Positions 5,413 through 17,688 of a stretch of 32,710 nucleotides of DNA are shown here, piece after piece. Each line of letters starts with the position of its first letter. Within the stretch, counting starts at the first letter, position 1. The DNA is from a virus. Its lineage: Duplodnaviria > Heunggongvirae > Uroviricota > Caudoviricetes. The notes under the pieces were generated by a model. That model had not been told where the DNA came from. It saw only the letters and a list, made by a program, of their open reading frames with translations, and did no database searches. Made by a program: the position numbers and the translations under genes. The stretch covers positions 1-32,710 of the IMG/VR virus record IMGVR_UViG_2711768052_000004; one strand, 5' to 3'.

Positions 5413-6603
5413 TTAATTGCTGTTAACCGAGGTGACCAGATTTGCCAGGTATTTATCGGTAATACGCTGGCGCAGGGTCAGGTTTTCGAGAGGAGGCACC
5501 GGTGTATAGTCGTAGTCGATATACAGTTTTCCGGCCTTGAGGGTTTCCGCATCGTTGGATTCTTCGCTGAACCAGCATGAGCCATCCACGATATAGCCGT
5601 TTGTTTTCAGCTCACGGAATTTGGCATTGATGCCGTCAACGATGTCGCGAATCAGCGTTGCGGTGATGGGCTTGTCCACCGCCCACATGTGCGCCTCAGC
5701 CATCGTATCGGCCAGCACCTGCGCGGTGCGGGTGTAGTTTTCAAAGAGGAACAGCGGGTCATCAGAGCAGGTACGGTTACCCCAGAAGCGGAAACCGTCG
5801 CGGCGAATCAGCGTTGTGACACCTGACTCATTCAACAGGTCAGCATCGGTGCCGGACTCCTGCAAATCCCAGAATACAGAGGCACTGATGCCGGTAACAC
5901 CGTTTACCCCGACGTTGGACAGCGTTTTATGCCAGCCCTGCTCCTGGTCGATTTTAGCGCGCAGACCCAGCGCACGGGCGGTGGCATACGCGGTGGCGGT
6001 GGTACTGGTGACCGTATCCCATGCGAGGAAATCCGGCCAGATAACCATCAGTTCACGCTGGCTGAAATTCTGGCGGTAGGCTTTCACCTCGGAAATGGTT
6101 TTACAGCCCCATGCGCTGATATACCCGAAAGCGCGCAGCTTCTGACAGACTGATGCCAGTGCAACAGCCACCTCTTTGGTGTCCAGTCCCGGCACGCCGA
6201 GAATACGCGGTTTAACACCAGTTACCGACTCCGCCGCCAGCAGGGCTTTCAGTCCGGTGTACTGACCGTTTTCGTCGGTGGTGCCGATGATATTGGAAAC
6301 GGTCTGCGCGAGTTTCGTTTCCTCGTCGTCGCCGGTGCCGTCTTCCACACGCACAACAACGGTGACCGGTTTTGACTGGTCGGCGATGGCCTGCAACGAT
6401 GCCGCCAGCGTGCCTTTTTTACCGGCCTTTGCAATTGCACTCTGCACATTGGTAATCAGCACCGGTTTATTGAGGGGGAAGGTTTCCGCATCCGCATCGC
6501 TGGCCGTGCAGACCATGCCGACAATGGCAGTGGATACGGTGGAAATGACGCGGGTGCCGTCGTTAATCTCCAGCACCTGCACGCCGTGATGATAGTCACT
6601 CAT
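5413..6603 (-). CDS. FI: Contractile tail sheath protein gpFI (396 aa)
   Basis: ORF track gives 434 aa; the internal Met (MSDYHHGVQVLEINDG) has ATG at 6601-6603 with GGAG upstream, and 396 aa matches P2 FI as I recall it. Confidence 0.9.
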   Translation of the reverse strand: MSDYHHGVQVLEINDGTRVISTVSTAIVGMVCTASDADAETFPLNKPVLITNVQSAIAKAGKKGTLAASLQAIADQSKPVTVVVRVEDGTGDDEETKLAQTVSNIIGTTDENGQYTGLKALLAAESVTGVKPRILGVPGLDTKEVAVALASVCQKLRAFGYISAWGCKTISEVKAYRQNFSQRELMVIWPDFLAWDTVTSTTATAYATARALGLRAKIDQEQGWHKTLSNVGVNGVTGISASVFWDLQESGTDADLLNESGVTTLIRRDGFRFWGNRTCSDDPLFLFENYTRTAQVLADTMAEAHMWAVDKPITATLIRDIVDGINAKFRELKTNGYIVDGSCWFSEESNDAETLKAGKLYIDYDYTPVPPLENLTLRQRITDKYLANLVTSVNSN

Positions 6604-6698
6604 CCGTTTAACTCCGTGGTTAATGGGTGAGTGGTATTTTGTGTTGTGCAGAGCATGAGACGCTATTTGACCTGGCTGGTCAGTGGATGAAACAACAG
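6604..6698 (-). promoter_or_regulatory. Expected late promoter P_F region (Ogr-dependent)
   Basis: Positional inference from P2, where a late promoter sits upstream of FI; contains TTGTTGT/ACAACA elements but no binding site was verified. Confidence 0.4.
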
Positions 6699-6727
6699 AT
6701 AAAGAAAAGGCGGACAATCCGCCCGCC
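6699..6727 (-). terminator. Rho-independent terminator downstream of the cargo gene and upstream of P_F
   Basis: Minus strand reads GGCGG-ATTGT-CCGCC followed by TTTTCTTTAT. Confidence 0.6.
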
Positions 6728-6787
6728 TGTCATGATTTGTACTCACTTATTTCCCGACTGACAATTTACATAGCCAAAACGCTATCA

Positions 6788-6799
6788 AATCTGACAGTC
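6788..6799. repeat. Left arm of inverted repeat flanking the G-FI cargo gene (AATCTGACAGTC)
   Basis: Exact reverse complement of 8714-8725; partner arms extend imperfectly for about 10 more bp. Confidence 0.6.
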
Positions 6800-6957
6800 T
6801 GCTTTGAGCGAGAAGCGGACTTTAGAGCTCATCATATATAACTACGATAACCAACATACTGGAATAAGTGTAGTTTACATCCTGTCTTTACTGCCCAAAA
6901 TTATTCTTATTGTTCTAGCTAATTATTTAGTGGTGAATAAATATCTTGTTAACATGT

Positions 6958-7029
6958 ACTAACTCAGCACAAGACTCCACTGAGTTAGTATATTTTTATA
7001 CTCCCCTGCGAATTTAGCAGGGAAGTATA
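6958..7029. other. Two adjacent stem-loops just 3' of the cargo gene
   Basis: ACTAACTCAG-N12-CTGAGTTAGT (6958-6989) followed by ATATTTTTATA on the plus strand; TATACTCCCCTGC-N7-GCAGGGAAGTATA (6997-7029, one mismatch). Confidence 0.5.
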
Positions 7030-7060
7030 TTACAAATTAATTTATAGTGGTTATATTAAT

Positions 7061-8500
7061 CTATGATTCACCATTTACCCTTTTATTCTCAGAGCAATAT
7101 AACCATTCAGAAACATTAATTATAGCCTCCGGATGCGAGTGTGTTGAGTGTATTAATATACCATCATTCTGTGGAGCAAATTTAATAACTTTATGATCTC
7201 CAGCTGGAGTTTCAGATGATGCAATAAAAACTTCCGGGCAAAATATTAATCGCAAATCTCCATAAGCTATGGCCTTAGCTACAGCCAACCAAAATGAAAA
7301 AATCGCAACTGGTATTGCTGCAATAAGTAAAACATGAGGAACATCCTTTGATGGTTTCAACCTTTGCCAAATGTGAGAAATAGAAGTTAATACAAAGCTT
7401 ACTAATAATACTATAATCCATGATTTTTCTTCAGGATAGAAGAACCATATTAATACACTCATGGAAATATAAAATAGGTAGCTTAAAACTGCTGACCAAT
7501 GTGTTAGCTTTTTATGACTTACTTGAGCTTTTTTTAGCTGGGAAAGAATTGCAAAACATCCTTCGTGAAGTGAACTTACAAATCTTAGGCCTGAATCGGC
7601 TTCATCACCAATTGCGTGATAAATTTCAACATTCCTAAAATCAACCGCTTCACAGTGCTCGCCACTCTCAACTTCCTGCAAAAATTCTTTTTTATATTTT
7701 TTGGAGATTATAATTTCTGCAAATATTGAAACAAAAAAAATTACTGCTGCATAATTAATATTATATAGATTCAAAGGTACAAAAAATACTGCAAGTAACA
7801 ATTGAATGGCCAAAGTTCCGCTAATATCAATAAGATTAATTAAAGCACCTGACGTTCTTTTTATCCTACGTCGAAAGATGAACGGTGGTGACAAAAGACA
7901 TACGCCTTGAATTTTTTTTGCAATATCACTTCGTAAATAAGACATTTCTCTTACAATAGCTGCCCCATGGCTATGTGCAATAATATAATTGTATTTTGCA
8001 GGAGAGTTATCAATATGCATTCCTAATTGATATGCCGCTTGTTTACGAGAGGATGCAGAGTTTTTGCCATCCCATTTAAATCGAGATATACCAATATTGG
8101 GATTCCTTGAGTTAATTGATTTGCACATTTTTGACTCAGGTTGTGTCCAAGATGCATTCGTCTCGAATGTTCCATGAACAAGGTGAACAATAACATCTTC
8201 TGATTCAGCATTAGCAATATCATTCACGGTTGTTGTTTTAGTCGAGTGGAATATAAAACGCCATGCCGTTGAAATCCCTTTTTGCCAGACAACATAATGG
8301 ACGAGTGCAACGATTAGTATTATTGCGACTGGAATAGTTACAAGGCCTATGGAAATAGTTTTAATTATATACTGAAGAACTCCTTTATTATGGGTGAAAA
8401 AATAATATGCTACAGAGGAAATAAAGAGCACTAGCATAGCCAACATTATCCCAGACAAGCCAAATAATATAATATATTTAATAAAATCGTGATTTCCCAT
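7061..8500 (-). CDS. Cargo protein (479 aa): polytopic membrane protein with a lipase/esterase-like domain; candidate defence effector
   Basis: Long AT-rich ORF in the G-FI slot; about seven hydrophobic helices by eye; soluble segment carries VHLVHGTFE and IIAHSHGAAIV (an A-x-S-x-G nucleophile-elbow-like pentapeptide); AAGG RBS upstream of ATG at 8498-8500. Confidence 0.8.
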   Translation of the reverse strand: MGNHDFIKYIILFGLSGIMLAMLVLFISSVAYYFFTHNKGVLQYIIKTISIGLVTIPVAIILIVALVHYVVWQKGISTAWRFIFHSTKTTTVNDIANAESEDVIVHLVHGTFETNASWTQPESKMCKSINSRNPNIGISRFKWDGKNSASSRKQAAYQLGMHIDNSPAKYNYIIAHSHGAAIVREMSYLRSDIAKKIQGVCLLSPPFIFRRRIKRTSGALINLIDISGTLAIQLLLAVFFVPLNLYNINYAAVIFFVSIFAEIIISKKYKKEFLQEVESGEHCEAVDFRNVEIYHAIGDEADSGLRFVSSLHEGCFAILSQLKKAQVSHKKLTHWSAVLSYLFYISMSVLIWFFYPEEKSWIIVLLVSFVLTSISHIWQRLKPSKDVPHVLLIAAIPVAIFSFWLAVAKAIAYGDLRLIFCPEVFIASSETPAGDHKVIKFAPQNDGILIHSTHSHPEAIINVSEWLYCSENKRVNGES

Positions 8501-8713
8501 TGAATTGCCTTCTATTTGGATAATCGATTATTTAACCTTTCGATTTTGTGGTTTCAACTTGAGGTTCAAACAAGAACATTGCTCGCTAGCAGTTATGAGT
8601 GAATCACTGTTAAGCGATCGTGATTTCAGCTATAGATGATCTGAACTACATGAATGCTGACTCACTAGCCTATTTTACATAATTGTGTGGATGTCTGCTA
8701 TTGGCACATAGCG

Positions 8714-8725
8714 GACTGTCAGATT
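8714..8725. repeat. Right arm of inverted repeat flanking the G-FI cargo gene (GACTGTCAGATT)
   Basis: Exact reverse complement of 6788-6799; lies in the G-to-cargo intergenic region. Confidence 0.6.
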
Positions 8726-8777
8726 AGGCTTTACTCTGTGCTATAGATATGTAAGCTCACACCAGAGATCATACAAC

Positions 8778-9305
8778 TTATTGCGGCATTTCCGGCCATT
8801 CGGGATTTGCAGGATCCACACGACTGACCAGAACGCTGTAGCGTTCCCATGCTTCCAGTCGGCTGCGTTCCTCATCCGTCGCCATATTCAGCCTGACAGC
8901 GCGTTCCAGCGGCAAAATCACGGATTCAGCTTCGGAAAGTAAAGCTGCCTTTTGTGATTCTGCCTGTTGCTCCTGTTCATCTGCCGTATAAATCCGCTTA
9001 ATCACGGCACCATCCTTAAACATCCATTTACCTGAGTCATCAGCACGTCGGTTGGAGGTAATATCAGGAACCTCGACAACGCTGAAACCTTCAGGGTTAA
9101 GCGTTGAAGCATCTCTGGTGATGCCGACAATTATATTATTCTCGTCGTAAACAATCTTTATCGTGTCTTCCTGAAAATTACTTACTTCCTCATACCAGTT
9201 TTTTCCCTCTTCGGACCATAACCAGATAACATCAAAATTTTTTGTCAGTTGATATTGGGCAACAGTTTTTGGATTACCCGCAGTAATATTTTTTAAATGC
9301 TGCAT
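8778..9305 (-). CDS. G: Tail fibre assembly protein gpG (175 aa)
   Basis: 175-aa ORF immediately downstream of H, as in P2. Confidence 0.88.
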
Positions 9306-17407: not shown

Positions 17408-17688
17408 TACTGTTTCCCCCTGCCCTTAAAGCGGCGCTGAATGGCAATCTCAATCACCTGATAACCGGCGATACCCAGCATGGAGCCGATGCCGCACACC
17501 GCAGGCAGTGACAGGTCAGGAAACTGCACCAGAACAACACCGGCAACCATCGAGACAAAACCACCGAGCAACATGCGACCGATAAACAGACGCGGGGTGA
17601 TGGGTTCACCACCGGCAAGCACCTTGCCGACAACAATCAGCACCCCAATCATGAAAAGCGACAGGACGCTTTTTTCTTCTGCTGTCAT
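17407..17688 (-). CDS. Y: Holin gpY (93 aa)
   Basis: 93-aa ORF with hydrophobic helices and a charged C-terminus (RRFKGRGKQ). Confidence 0.9.
   Translation of the reverse strand: MTAEEKSVLSLFMIGVLIVVGKVLAGGEPITPRLFIGRMLLGGFVSMVAGVVLVQFPDLSLPAVCGIGSMLGIAGYQVIEIAIQRRFKGRGKQ

What the first reader, a model, noticed from the sequence alone, without database searches (positions are those of the whole stretch)
6788..8725. Inverted repeat bracketing the G-FI cargo gene
AATCTGACAGTC (6788-6799) and its exact reverse complement GACTGTCAGATT (8714-8725) lie in the two intergenic flanks of the 479-aa cargo gene, with imperfect extension to about 19 of 23 bp. An AGCGGACT direct repeat is also present in both flanks (6814-6821 and 8710-8717). 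This could be a footprint of acquisition, for example insertion into the loop of an ancestral terminator hairpin, or terminal repeats of a small mobile cassette. A 12-bp inverted match within 2 kb can occur by chance in 32 kb, so this is suggestive only.
Basis: seen in the sequence. Interest (0 to 1): 0.45.

Follow-up and report, generated by a model that had tools for sequence, protein, structure and literature searches.

The report
Transposon-like repeats bracketing P2 cargo
The short inverted repeat is real and is the conserved inner part of two 90-base terminal repeats that frame the accessory-gene slot of P2-like phages, a feature annotated in 2004, and the same repeats frame other cargo in satellites, plasmids and chromosomes with the marks of transposition.

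Summary
The 12-bp inverted repeat is present exactly as described and extends to 33 nt. Each arm is itself a 9-bp-stem hairpin followed by an outward-facing TGTCAGATT. It is not specific to this cargo. Both arms occur at the same place in 70 P2-like loci carrying 38 unrelated cargos, and homology breaks within about 2 nt of the inner hairpin edge. GenBank records AJ512676-83 (Nilsson et al. 2004) already annotate these as the left and right inverted repeats of the P2 "Z region", so the feature is known.

New here, as far as the held literature shows: the arms are the inner 40 nt of 90-nt terminal inverted repeats (window 6738-6827 and 8686-8775). The same repeat pair, with one L-type and one R-type end, brackets other cargo in a P4-like satellite, in the P2 old/tin slot, in plasmids and in chromosomes. 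In 12 independent contexts it is flanked by 7-bp direct repeats (six 7/7, five 6/7, one 5/7). Two uninterrupted empty sites were found.

In P2 coliphages the copy lies between the G stop codon and the V-operon terminator. Its termini are decayed and it has no clean duplication. No transposase was found. The reading of insertion into a terminator loop is refuted at this locus; the terminal-repeat reading is partly right.

The parts
6738..6827 (+). Left 90-nt terminal inverted repeat (L-type end, FI side), read outer to inner on the + strand. Terminal TGTACTCACTTA at 6738-6749 is the decayed TGTATTAGCTCA.
   Evidence: Positional alignment with 90-nt ends of 12 family members. Outer 50 nt are 29/50 identical to the L-type consensus; inner 40 nt are 34/40.
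6755..6764 (+). Outer CTGAC box of the left repeat (CGACTGACAA; family consensus GATCTGACAG at repeat positions 18-27).
   Evidence: Family consensus. Sequence.
6788..6796 (+).
   Evidence: At least 93% conserved in 85 distinct arms.
6797..6820 (+). Left arm hairpin: outer half GTCTGCTTT (6797-6805), loop GAGCGA (6806-6811), inner half GAAGCGGAC (6812-6820).
   Evidence: (fold -17.6 kcal/mol, z -2.66 on the + strand).
7061..8500 (-). Cargo gene: 479-aa protein of unknown function. It has hydrophobic, membrane-like stretches (by eye; not predicted with a tool) and a sub-threshold serine-hydrolase-like match.
   Evidence: no PADLOC hit; Ser_hydrolase 19 bits, below the cut-off of 22; no NCBIfam; 2 of 5426 E. 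coli genomes.
8693..8716 (+). Right arm hairpin: inner half GTCTGCTAT (8693-8701), loop TGGCAC (8702-8707), outer half ATAGCGGAC (8708-8716).
8717..8725 (+). Inner box TGTCAGATT of the right repeat.
8686..8775 (-). Right 90-nt terminal inverted repeat (R-type end, G side), read outer to inner on the - strand. Terminal TGTATGATCTCT lies at 8775-8764.
   Evidence: Outer 50 nt are 33/50 identical to the R-type consensus; inner 40 nt are 31/40. It corresponds to the 'left inverted repeat' annotated in AJ512680.
8778..9305 (-). Tail-fibre assembly gene G. Its stop codon (8778-8780) is 2 nt from the element's end.
   Evidence: annotation of relatives.
6698..6728 (-). Intrinsic terminator (stem 6728-6708, then a T tract), 10 nt outside the element. 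Probably the displaced terminator of the V-W-J-I-H-G operon and the homologue of phage 186 t45.
6670..6698 (-). Probable Ogr/activator site of the late promoter P_F, upstream of FI (start codon 6601-6603).
   Evidence: By position against the P2 annotation (activator site 17555-17583) and sequences. Inferred by eye; no formal alignment was made.

Best explanation
The repeat is the most conserved inner part of the two 90-nt terminal inverted repeats of a non-autonomous, transposon-like cassette carrier. In the window the carrier occupies 6738-8775, between the stop codon of tail gene G and the intrinsic terminator that precedes the late promoter of FI.

Shown:
- Family members have one L-type and one R-type end. 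The two ends share about 25 terminal nt (TGTATTAGCTCAGACTTGATCTGAC) and an inner block made of AATCTGACAG plus a 9-bp-stem hairpin.
- They sit at many unrelated sites, flanked by 7-bp duplications of target sequence, usually beside or inside hairpin terminators.
- Uninterrupted empty sites exist.

Inferred:
- An unidentified transposase supplied in trans, probably of the DDE type, recognises the termini and the repeated CTGAC boxes.
- In P2-like coliphages the insertion is ancestral and fixed, with decayed termini.
- Cargo is replaced inside the frame by recombination within the arms with other family members present in the same cell.

The role of the hairpins themselves is not resolved. They could be a transposase-binding site, an insulator or the cassette boundary.
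For: Arms are independent of cargo.
- 14 phage genomes and 70 loci with 38 cargo clusters all break homology within about 2 nt of GCGGAC-RTT on the left and AAY-GTCCGC on the right.
- The outer junctions are identical across cargo types, which implies one ancestral insertion.

The same repeat pair occurs elsewhere.
- A P4-like satellite between int and psu (L105).
- A distant P2-like phage directly after the gpA homologue, in the old/tin slot (L102).
- A locus next to integrases (L109).
- Plasmids: 63 records from Klebsiella, Salmonella, Providencia, Yersinia, Pantoea and Serratia (L139, L140).
- Genome contigs of Erwinia, Morganella, Kosakonia, Klebsiella and others.

Termini and duplications.
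- The repeats are exactly 90 nt at both ends.
- 7-bp direct repeats lie just outside them.
- 7/7 matches: L109, L073, L102, L151, L149, L139a.
- 6/7 matches: L029, L105, L057, L129, L140.
- 5/7 match: L139b.
- Chance probability per site is 0.00024 for 7/7, 0.004 for 6/7 and 0.03 for 5/7.
- The duplicated sequences differ between sites.

Empty sites.
- L138 carries one GCTAACT. Both of its flanks are 97-98% identical to the L109 flanks.
- The reconstructed L140 target matches as a single 400-nt piece in 184 plasmid records. It has one CGTCAGC, in a hairpin loop.

Decay in the window.
- The outer 50 nt are 29/50 and 33/50 identical to the consensus.
- The inner 40 nt are 34/40 and 31/40 identical.

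Evidence of exchange within the arms.
- L053 has a chimeric arm: L-type loop and outer half joined to an R-type flank.
- Side-diagnostic positions exist only in the loop and outer half (total variation distance between the two sides' base frequencies 0.93-1.0). None exist in the inner half (0.24 or less).
Against: - No 7-bp duplication at the window copy: CATGATT versus ACTTATT, 4/7. P2 itself gives 5/7.
- No P2-like coliphage with an empty slot was found. The only slot-empty relative, phage 186, belongs to another genus.
- No transposase was found in any cargo examined. The only transposase genes seen were secondary insertion sequences of other families: the IS30-like (L143) and IS630-like (L146) assignments come from Pfam domains; the IS4-like and IS630-like reading of the L116 ORFs rests on my reading of their sequences (no domain scan was run).
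- No autonomous relative was found, and 7 bp is not the duplication length of Tn7, Mu or Tn402 (5 bp, from my knowledge).
- Homologues of this cargo (68-85% identical) in Proteus, Klebsiella and Pectobacterium contexts have no arms, so genes enter and leave the frame by some other route.
- How unrelated cargos come to share a boundary exact to about 2 nt is not explained by homologous recombination alone.
- The text of Nilsson et al. 2004 could not be read.
Confidence: 0.7

Rival explanations
1. The arm hairpins are sites of a dedicated site-specific recombination system that swaps cassettes in and out of a fixed frame. The crossover would lie at the junction of loop and inner stem. This is my understanding of the idea implied by the title of Nilsson et al. 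2004. It could coexist with transposition of the whole frame.
For: - The homology break is exact to about 2 nt in 38 unrelated cargo clusters.
- The loop and outer half are side-specific, while the inner half plus RTT is one shared pool on both sides.
- Left inner halves pair better with the right-type outer half than with their own (6.76 versus 6.27 Watson-Crick pairs).
- There is no compensatory covariation between the two halves (78.6% of positions paired versus 77.9% in shuffles, 50/500).
- The architecture of 9-nt arms around a 6-nt spacer resembles recombinase core sites (resemblance from my knowledge, not tested).
Against: - The two loops differ (TGGCAC versus TCGCTC/GAGCGA). A shared overlap region, as tyrosine recombinases need, is therefore absent.
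- No recombinase is linked to the elements.
- Whole-frame insertions with variable 7-bp duplications are explained by transposition, not by such a system.
- Cargo homologues elsewhere carry no half-sites.
Confidence: 0.15
2. The arms are ordinary phage backbone elements, for example paired outward-facing terminators or insulators, or RNA 3'-end stabilisers. They would shield the late tail operons from cargo transcription and have no role in mobility.
For: - Both arms present the same RNA motif (hairpin, then UGUCAGAUU) to transcripts leaving the cargo in either direction.
- The inner 40 nt stay conserved in P2 although the termini have decayed, which suggests a local function.
- The elements sit at operon 3' ends.
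Against: - The arms are not called as terminators and have no T tract.
- Folding z-scores are modest and strand-dependent (-0.28 to -2.66).
- There is no covariation.
- pro147-type phages lack the left arm, and pro147 forms plaques (PMC5285337).
- This explanation does not account for the same 90-nt pair with 7-bp duplications and empty sites in unrelated replicons.
Confidence: 0.1
3. Chance match in AT-rich intergenic DNA.
For: About four 12-bp inverted pairs within 2 kb are expected in 32.7 kb (my arithmetic). A longer perfect 15-bp pair lies inside the cargo gene.
Against: - Extension to 33 nt, with 0 of 2000 shuffles reaching the score.
- Covariance-model E-values of about 1e-13.
- Conservation in more than 100 loci.
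- Annotated as repeats in GenBank.
Confidence: 0.01

Closest known systems
Inverted repeats of the P2 'Z region' (Z/fun slot between G and FI). Annotated in GenBank AJ512676-AJ512683; Nilsson, Karlsson & Haggard-Ljungquist, Mol Biol Evol 2004.
   Same: Same locus and same sequences. The annotated 'left inverted repeat' (113 nt, reaching into the G 3' end) and 'right inverted repeat' (91 nt) of P2-EC46 contain the window's arms almost base for base. The insert between them is AT-rich and foreign.
   Different: The cargo here (479 aa) is not among those fetched and is rare (2 of 5426 E. coli genomes). The paper's text was not available, so I cannot say whether it reports the 90-nt ends, the 7-bp duplications or the empty sites. 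Its title points to site-specific recombination rather than transposition.
Non-autonomous transposable elements that carry passenger genes between terminal inverted repeats (mobile insertion cassettes, MITE-like elements); recalled from general knowledge.
   Same: Terminal inverted repeats, a target-site duplication of fixed length, empty sites, no transposase inside and variable passenger genes.
   Different: The repeats are long (90 nt) and asymmetric (L and R types), with an internal hairpin at the cargo boundary. No partner transposase or autonomous element is known. The P2 copy appears fixed and decayed.
Tn7-like, Mu and Tn402-type elements (ends begin TGT, several transposase-binding repeats per end; Tn7 inserts at the glmS terminator and often carries defence cargo); from my knowledge.
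   Same: TGT termini, repeated boxes in each end, asymmetric left and right ends, insertion beside terminators, defence-like cargo.
   Different: The duplication is 7 bp, not 5 bp. No tnsABC, tniABQ or MuA-like genes lie inside. No sequence similarity of the ends was tested.
Integron gene cassettes (attC hairpins).
   Same: Unrelated single genes or operons delimited by imperfect hairpins, with a conserved triplet (RTT / AAY) at the boundary.
   Different: No IntI, no attI and no cassette arrays. attC core sites (GTTRRRY / RYYYAAC) are absent. There are two hairpins per cassette in inverted order, and whole-unit insertions make 7-bp duplications.

Membership tests
P2 Z-region inverted repeats (Nilsson et al. 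2004 / AJ512676-83) | Lies between tail-fibre assembly gene G and sheath gene FI of a P2-like phage. | tested here: met
P2 Z-region inverted repeats (Nilsson et al. 2004 / AJ512676-83) | Sequence homologous to the annotated left and right inverted repeats. | tested here: met
   The arm and flank sequences of AJ512680 match the window almost base for base.
P2 Z-region inverted repeats (Nilsson et al. 2004 / AJ512676-83) | Encloses AT-rich foreign ORF(s) that differ between phages. | tested here: met
   G+C 0.29-0.38 versus 0.55; 38 cargo clusters.
Transposable element with terminal inverted repeats | Terminal inverted repeats of defined length. | tested here: met
   90 nt at both ends in 12 contexts. 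The window copy aligns positionally but its outer 50 nt are only 58-66% identical to the consensus.
Transposable element with terminal inverted repeats | Target-site duplication flanking the element. | tested here: inconclusive
   Met for the family: 7 bp, with six sites at 7/7, five at 6/7 and one at 5/7. Not met for the window copy (4/7); P2 gives 5/7.
Transposable element with terminal inverted repeats | Empty (uninterrupted) target sites in relatives. | tested here: inconclusive
   Met for two other family members: L138 versus L109 and 184 plasmid records versus L140. For the P2 slot only phage 186, from another genus, is empty. No empty coliphage slot was found.
Transposable element with terminal inverted repeats | A transposase, in cis or identified in trans. 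| tested here: not met
   None found in the cargos examined; only unrelated secondary insertion sequences. The sampling was small.
Tn7 / Mu / Tn402-type elements | 5-bp target duplication and transposition genes of the tnsB, MuA or tniA type inside the element. | tested here: not met
   The duplication is 7 bp. No such genes were found. The 5-bp figure is from my knowledge.
Integron gene cassette | attC with RYYYAAC / GTTRRRY core sites, and an adjacent intI/attI platform. | tested here: not met
   The arm consensus is AAY-GTCCGCTYY-loop-RRAGCRGAC-TGTCAGATT. No integron integrase appears in the annotation of neighbours.
Intrinsic (Rho-independent) terminator | G+C-rich hairpin directly followed by a T tract. 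| tested here: not met
   The scan calls 6728-6708 but not the arms. The sequence after either arm is not T-rich.
Known RNA families (Rfam 15) | Match to a curated covariance model. | tested here: not met
   No match with E of 1 or less in 6600-8900.

The most novel reading that the evidence does not exclude
The accessory-gene (largely defence) cargo of the P2 Z/fun slot is carried by one dispersed family of non-autonomous transposable elements. Members also occur in some P4-like satellites, in the old/tin slot of some P2-like phages, in conjugative plasmids and in chromosomes.

Features of the family:
- 90-nt asymmetric terminal repeats.
- 7-bp target duplications.
- A preference for terminator hairpins as targets.

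These shared ends would be the missing vehicle, or the missing homology, by which defence systems shuttle between phages, satellites and plasmids.

The held literature does not describe this.
- A September 2026 survey of P2 and P4 hotspots states that transposable elements are almost nonexistent there, and that the recombination processes "still need to be elucidated" (PMC13586616).
- No held paper contains the terminal 12-mer.
- Nilsson et al. 2004 could not be read and may already contain part of this.
Probability: 0.45. Interest if true: 0.8.

Novelty: new member of a known kind. Interest (0 to 1): 0.6.

Why it matters
P2-like prophages and P4-like satellites are major carriers of anti-phage systems in E. 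coli and its relatives. Their cargo is swapped very fast, and the mechanism is openly unknown (PMC13586616; PMC9122126).

If the repeats that frame the Z/fun slot are the ends of a transposable cassette carrier, three things follow:
- The exact and recurrent slot boundaries are explained.
- A sequence signature (the 90-nt ends, or the 40-nt arm model) becomes available to find cargo and new defence candidates in any replicon.
- The question of mechanism becomes testable with a marked mini-element.

For the window itself the practical result is modest. The repeat is a known, conserved landmark. The interesting unknown is the rare 479-aa membrane-associated hydrolase-like cargo.

Tried and rejected
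- **Arms as terminators.** The consensus scan does not call them and they have no T tract. The real terminator is at 6728-6708.
- **Structure-level selection.** Pair counts on 85 distinct arms show no covariation beyond shuffles. Single-sequence fold z-scores are weak and strand-dependent.
- **Extending the repeat beyond TGTCAGATT within the window alone.** Not significant (708 of 2000 shuffles). The shared terminal 25 nt show up only at family level.
- **Empty P2 slot.** Two gapped exact-pattern scans of viral contigs found nothing.
- **Empty sites for L073, L102 and L151.** Exact patterns found nothing.
- **Transposase hunt.** Large cargos and long one-ended loci hold defence-like genes and unrelated insertion sequences (IS30-like and IS630-like by Pfam domains; IS4-like and IS630-like in L116 by my reading of the ORFs), but no shared candidate.
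- **Does this cargo travel with the arms?** Homologues in Proteus, Klebsiella and Pectobacterium have no arms. The two E. coli genomes with the same cargo were found; the one examined (H119) has it in the same P2 slot.
- **Cargo function.** No PADLOC, NCBIfam or above-threshold Pfam match.
- **Rfam.** Nothing.
- **Integron, IS200/IS605 and REP-like readings.** Considered and dropped. The core sites do not match, and the 7-bp duplications do not fit those mechanisms.
- **Alternative helix GGCACAGAG / CTCTGTGCC in the R-type end.** My count mixed L- and R-type ends and is inconclusive.
- **Literature.** Nilsson 2004 and Odegrip 2006 are not held.
Full report
**Setting**

The window is a P2-like (Peduovirus) prophage. 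On the minus strand the gene order is:
- tail fibre H (11354-9309)
- tail-fibre assembly G (9305-8778)
- a 479-aa ORF (8500-7061)
- tail sheath FI (6603-5413)

Megablast of 6300-9300 against phage genomes finds 145 P2-like records. These match only the two flanks (about 37% of the query) and never the middle. This is the Z/fun accessory slot of P2, which recent work treats as a defence hotspot (PMC9519451; bioRxiv 2024.10.15.618418).

Yes.
- The 12-mer and its reverse complement are at the stated coordinates. They are the only two copies in the window, even with one mismatch allowed.
- A 12-bp inverted pair within 2 kb is expected a few times in 32.7 kb. A perfect 15-bp pair in fact lies inside the cargo gene. 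The 12-mer alone proves nothing.
- The match extends to 33 nt at 79%. Its local alignment score is 31, against a shuffle maximum of 28 in 2000 trials.
- The arms sit at the G+C step from about 0.55 to 0.29-0.38.
- Each arm is itself a hairpin with a 9-bp stem followed by an outward-facing TGTCAGATT.

**The arms belong to the phage lineage, not to this cargo**

- Flanks of 14 phage genomes with different inserts were aligned. In all of them homology runs up to the inner edge of each hairpin and then stops. The exception is the pro147 type, which lacks the left arm.
- A scan of viral contigs for GCRGACTGTCAGATT gave 119 loci.
- 70 loci had both flanks. They hold 38 unrelated cargo clusters of 908-5903 nt and none is empty.
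- The outer junctions with G and with the FI upstream region are the same throughout.
- The loop and outer half-stem are nearly invariant. The inner half-stem plus three bases (GCGGAC-ATT, GCGGAC-GTT or GCGGAA-GTT, and their complements on the other side) varies and travels with the cargo type.

**Already annotated**

A BLAST search with an arm sequence hit GenBank entries AJ512676-AJ512683 ("Bacteriophage P2-EC46 proviral Z-region" and similar). In these, the matching stretches are annotated "left inverted repeat" (113 nt, reaching into the G 3' end) and "right inverted repeat" (91 nt). The sequences are almost identical to the window's.

[quoted passage not shown] The attribution is from memory: no tool output links the records to the paper. 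The paper's reference is cited in several held papers, but its text is not held. The inverted repeat as a feature of the slot is therefore known.

**Anatomy of the arm**

Read from the inside outwards, 85 distinct arms align without gaps:
- R type: AAY-GTCCGCTYY-TGGCAC-AGAGCGGAC-TGTCAGATT
- L type: AAY-GTCCGCTYY-TCGCTC-AAAGCAGAC-TGTCAGATT

Positions that tell the two sides apart lie only in the loop and outer half (columns 18, 21, 24 and 28; total variation distance between the two sides' base frequencies 0.93-1.0). The inner half has none (0.24 or less). Left inner halves would pair slightly better with the right-type outer half than with their own.

The helix is plausible: 78.6% of positions pair, against 20-52% when the partners are shifted. 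It shows no covariation beyond column shuffles (50/500). The arms are not called as terminators and match no Rfam family.

A covariance model of the arm finds exactly two copies in the window.

**The same repeats frame cargo elsewhere**

The model finds outward-facing pairs in loci that are not the G-FI slot.

| Locus | Context |
|---|---|
| L105 | P4-like satellite with integrase, Psu-like protein, repressor and primase; the pair sits between int and psu |
| L102 | Distant P2-like phage; the pair follows the gpA homologue, in the old/tin slot |
| L109 | The pair frames three genes next to two integrases |
| L139, L140 | Plasmids, including an IncFII leading region with a TerB-N / ATPase / helicase cargo |

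- An 83-nt L-type end matches 63 plasmid records from Klebsiella, Salmonella, Providencia, Yersinia, Pantoea and Serratia.
- An exact 24-mer matches genome contigs of Erwinia, Morganella, Pectobacterium, Rouxiella, Kosakonia and Klebsiella.
- Every complete element has one L-type and one R-type end. The two types are therefore properties of the element, not of the host locus.

**Marks of transposition**

- Outside the 40-nt arm the similarity continues for exactly 50 nt, to a terminus TGTATTAGCTCA. The repeats are thus 90 nt at both ends in 12 independent contexts.
- The two ends share their first 25 nt or so, differ in the middle, and share the inner block again. A second CTGAC box lies at positions 18-27.
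- Immediately outside lie 7-bp direct repeats that differ from site to site:

| Locus | Left / right 7-mer | Match |
|---|---|---|
| L109 | GCTAACT | 7/7 |
| L073 | CATTAAT | 7/7 |
| L102 | AATAATT | 7/7 |
| L151 | GCTAATA | 7/7 |
| L149 | CTTAATC | 7/7 |
| L139a | TATTAGC | 7/7 |
| L029, L105, L057, L129, L140 | | 6/7 |
| L139b | AATATGG / CATAGGG | 5/7 |

- With a per-position match probability of 0.30, a 7/7 match has p = 0.00024 and a 6/7 match has p = 0.004.

Two empty sites were found:
- L138 has the uninterrupted target with one GCTAACT. It aligns at 97-98% to both flanks of L109, whose insert is 4.1 kb. The target is an intrinsic-terminator stem-loop.
- The reconstructed target of L140 (200 + 200 nt with one copy of the 7-mer) matches as a single piece over 1-400 at 96% in 184 plasmid records. 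In a Klebsiella electrica IncFII plasmid the single CGTCAGC lies in the loop of a long hairpin.

Several other insertions lie within about 25 nt of a terminator hairpin.

**The window copy**

By position the element is 6738-8775.
- Its right end is 2 nt from the G stop codon.
- Its left end is 10 nt from the intrinsic terminator at 6728-6708. The probable P_F activator site and FI follow, by comparison with the P2 annotation.
- Phage 186, of the sister genus, has no insert. Its order is tail-fibre-assembly stop, 3 nt, terminator t45, B-protein site, promoter pJ, sheath gene. The intergenic region is 128 nt and has no arm; the best model hit is 9.1 bits.
- The element therefore sits between the stop codon and an intact terminator, not inside the terminator.
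- The termini of the window copy are decayed: the outer 50 nt are 29/50 and 33/50 identical to consensus, while the inner 40 nt are 34/40 and 31/40.
- The flanking 7-mers do not match: 4/7 here and 5/7 in P2.
- With the invariant outer junctions, this points to one old insertion that is now fixed, with turnover of what lies inside.

**How it most likely works**

Shown:
- The arms are the inner part of 90-nt terminal repeats.
- The family has inserted at many sites with 7-bp duplications.
- Empty sites exist.
- Targets are at or near hairpin terminators.
- The P2 copy is fixed and carries dozens of different cargos.

Inferred:
- A transposase supplied in trans recognises the termini and the CTGAC boxes.
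- In P2 coliphages cargo is renewed by recombination within the arms with other family members in the same cell.
- The chimeric arm of L053 and the pooling of inner half-stems across both sides fit exchange inside the arms.
- The sharpness of the boundary leaves room for a site-specific step at the hairpins, which I keep as a rival.

No transposase or autonomous copy was found in the small sample examined.

**The cargo**

- The 479-aa protein has no PADLOC or NCBIfam match and only sub-threshold serine-hydrolase Pfam matches.
- It occurs in 2 of 5426 complete E. coli genomes. In the one examined (H119) it lies in the same slot.
- It has homologues across Enterobacterales and Burkholderia, a few of them named lipase or alpha/beta hydrolase.
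- Three homologues at 68-85% identity sit in other contexts without arms:
  - next to CBASS-like genes in Proteus
  - next to an integrase fragment in Klebsiella
  - next to Gabija-like genes on a conjugative element in Pectobacterium

**What is known and what may be new**

The inverted repeats of the Z region are known. Four points were not found in the held literature: the 90-nt ends, the 7-bp duplications, the empty sites, and the presence of the same ends in satellites, plasmids and chromosomes.
- Rousset et al. 2022 do not mention repeats or hairpins, and propose recombination near cos.
- Moura de Sousa et al. 2026 state that transposable elements are almost nonexistent in these hotspots, and that the recombination processes remain to be elucidated.
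- No held paper contains the terminal 12-mer.
- Because the 2004 paper could not be read, I rate the chance that this reading is undescribed at about 0.45.

**Verdict**

The repeats are terminal repeats of a mobile cassette family, but they are not a footprint of this cargo's acquisition, and the element did not insert into a terminator loop here.
- The feature in the window is a new member, with a new cargo, of a known kind.
- Interest is 0.6, because it leads to a testable mechanism for an openly stated problem.

Noticed in passing
window 6698-6728 (- strand): Strong intrinsic terminator between the element and the FI late promoter. It is homologous in position to phage 186 t45. The P2 GenBank record does not annotate it and instead places the 'putative V operon terminator' inside the cargo, next to fun(Z).
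   Followed up: partly
window 7145-7159 and 7447-7461: Perfect 15-bp inverted repeat inside the cargo gene, longer than the 12-mer under study. Probably chance in AT-rich coding DNA.
   Followed up: no
L053 3461-3530: Chimeric arm: L-type loop and outer half (TCGCTC, AAAGCAGAC) joined at TGTCAGATT to an R-type outer flank (AGGTTTAGCTCTGTGCTATAG). This points to recombination between the two end types.
   Followed up: partly
L010, L028, L031 (pro147 type), left junction: The left arm is missing. Homology ends about 6 nt before it and an 810-nt metal-binding-domain gene fills the slot. pro147 forms plaques (PMC5285337), so the left arm is not essential for the phage.
   Followed up: partly
window 8708-8716 with 8736-8745; R-type ends in general: In R-type ends, GGCACAGAG(C) about 20 nt outside the hairpin is complementary to the hairpin's loop plus outer half ((G)CTCTGTGCC). 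The two structures would be mutually exclusive. My pair count mixed end types and is inconclusive.
   Followed up: partly
L139 1234-4621 and L151 5632-7830: Two independent insertions duplicated TATTAGC / GCTAATA, which resembles the element's own terminus TGTATTAGC. Their left flanks contain TGTAT. This could reflect a target preference or nesting next to an older end.
   Followed up: no
L140 9001-15653 (Klebsiella electrica IncFII plasmid): A family member in the plasmid leading region, between anti-restriction / methylase genes and psiB. It carries a TerB-N protein, an ATPase and a DEAD/DEAH helicase. 184 related plasmid records have the site empty.
   Followed up: partly
L152, L157 (cargo homologues): Homologues of the 479-aa protein lie next to Cap15 / CD-NTase (CBASS-like) genes in Proteus mirabilis, and next to an OLD-like TOPRIM ATPase plus UvrD helicase (Gabija-like) on a T4SS element in Pectobacterium. 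This hints at a defence-island association.
   Followed up: no
L116 slot (5.9 kb): The largest Z-slot insert seems to owe its size to secondary insertion sequences inside the cargo. I read two of its ORFs as IS4-like and IS630-like transposases from their sequences alone; no domain scan was run on them.
   Followed up: no
L088, L100, L114: In a P2-like lineage with only 46% identical sheath protein and a different gene order, an R-type arm lies about 60 nt downstream of the gpD homologue's 3' end. The arms are thus conserved far beyond coliphage P2.
   Followed up: partly
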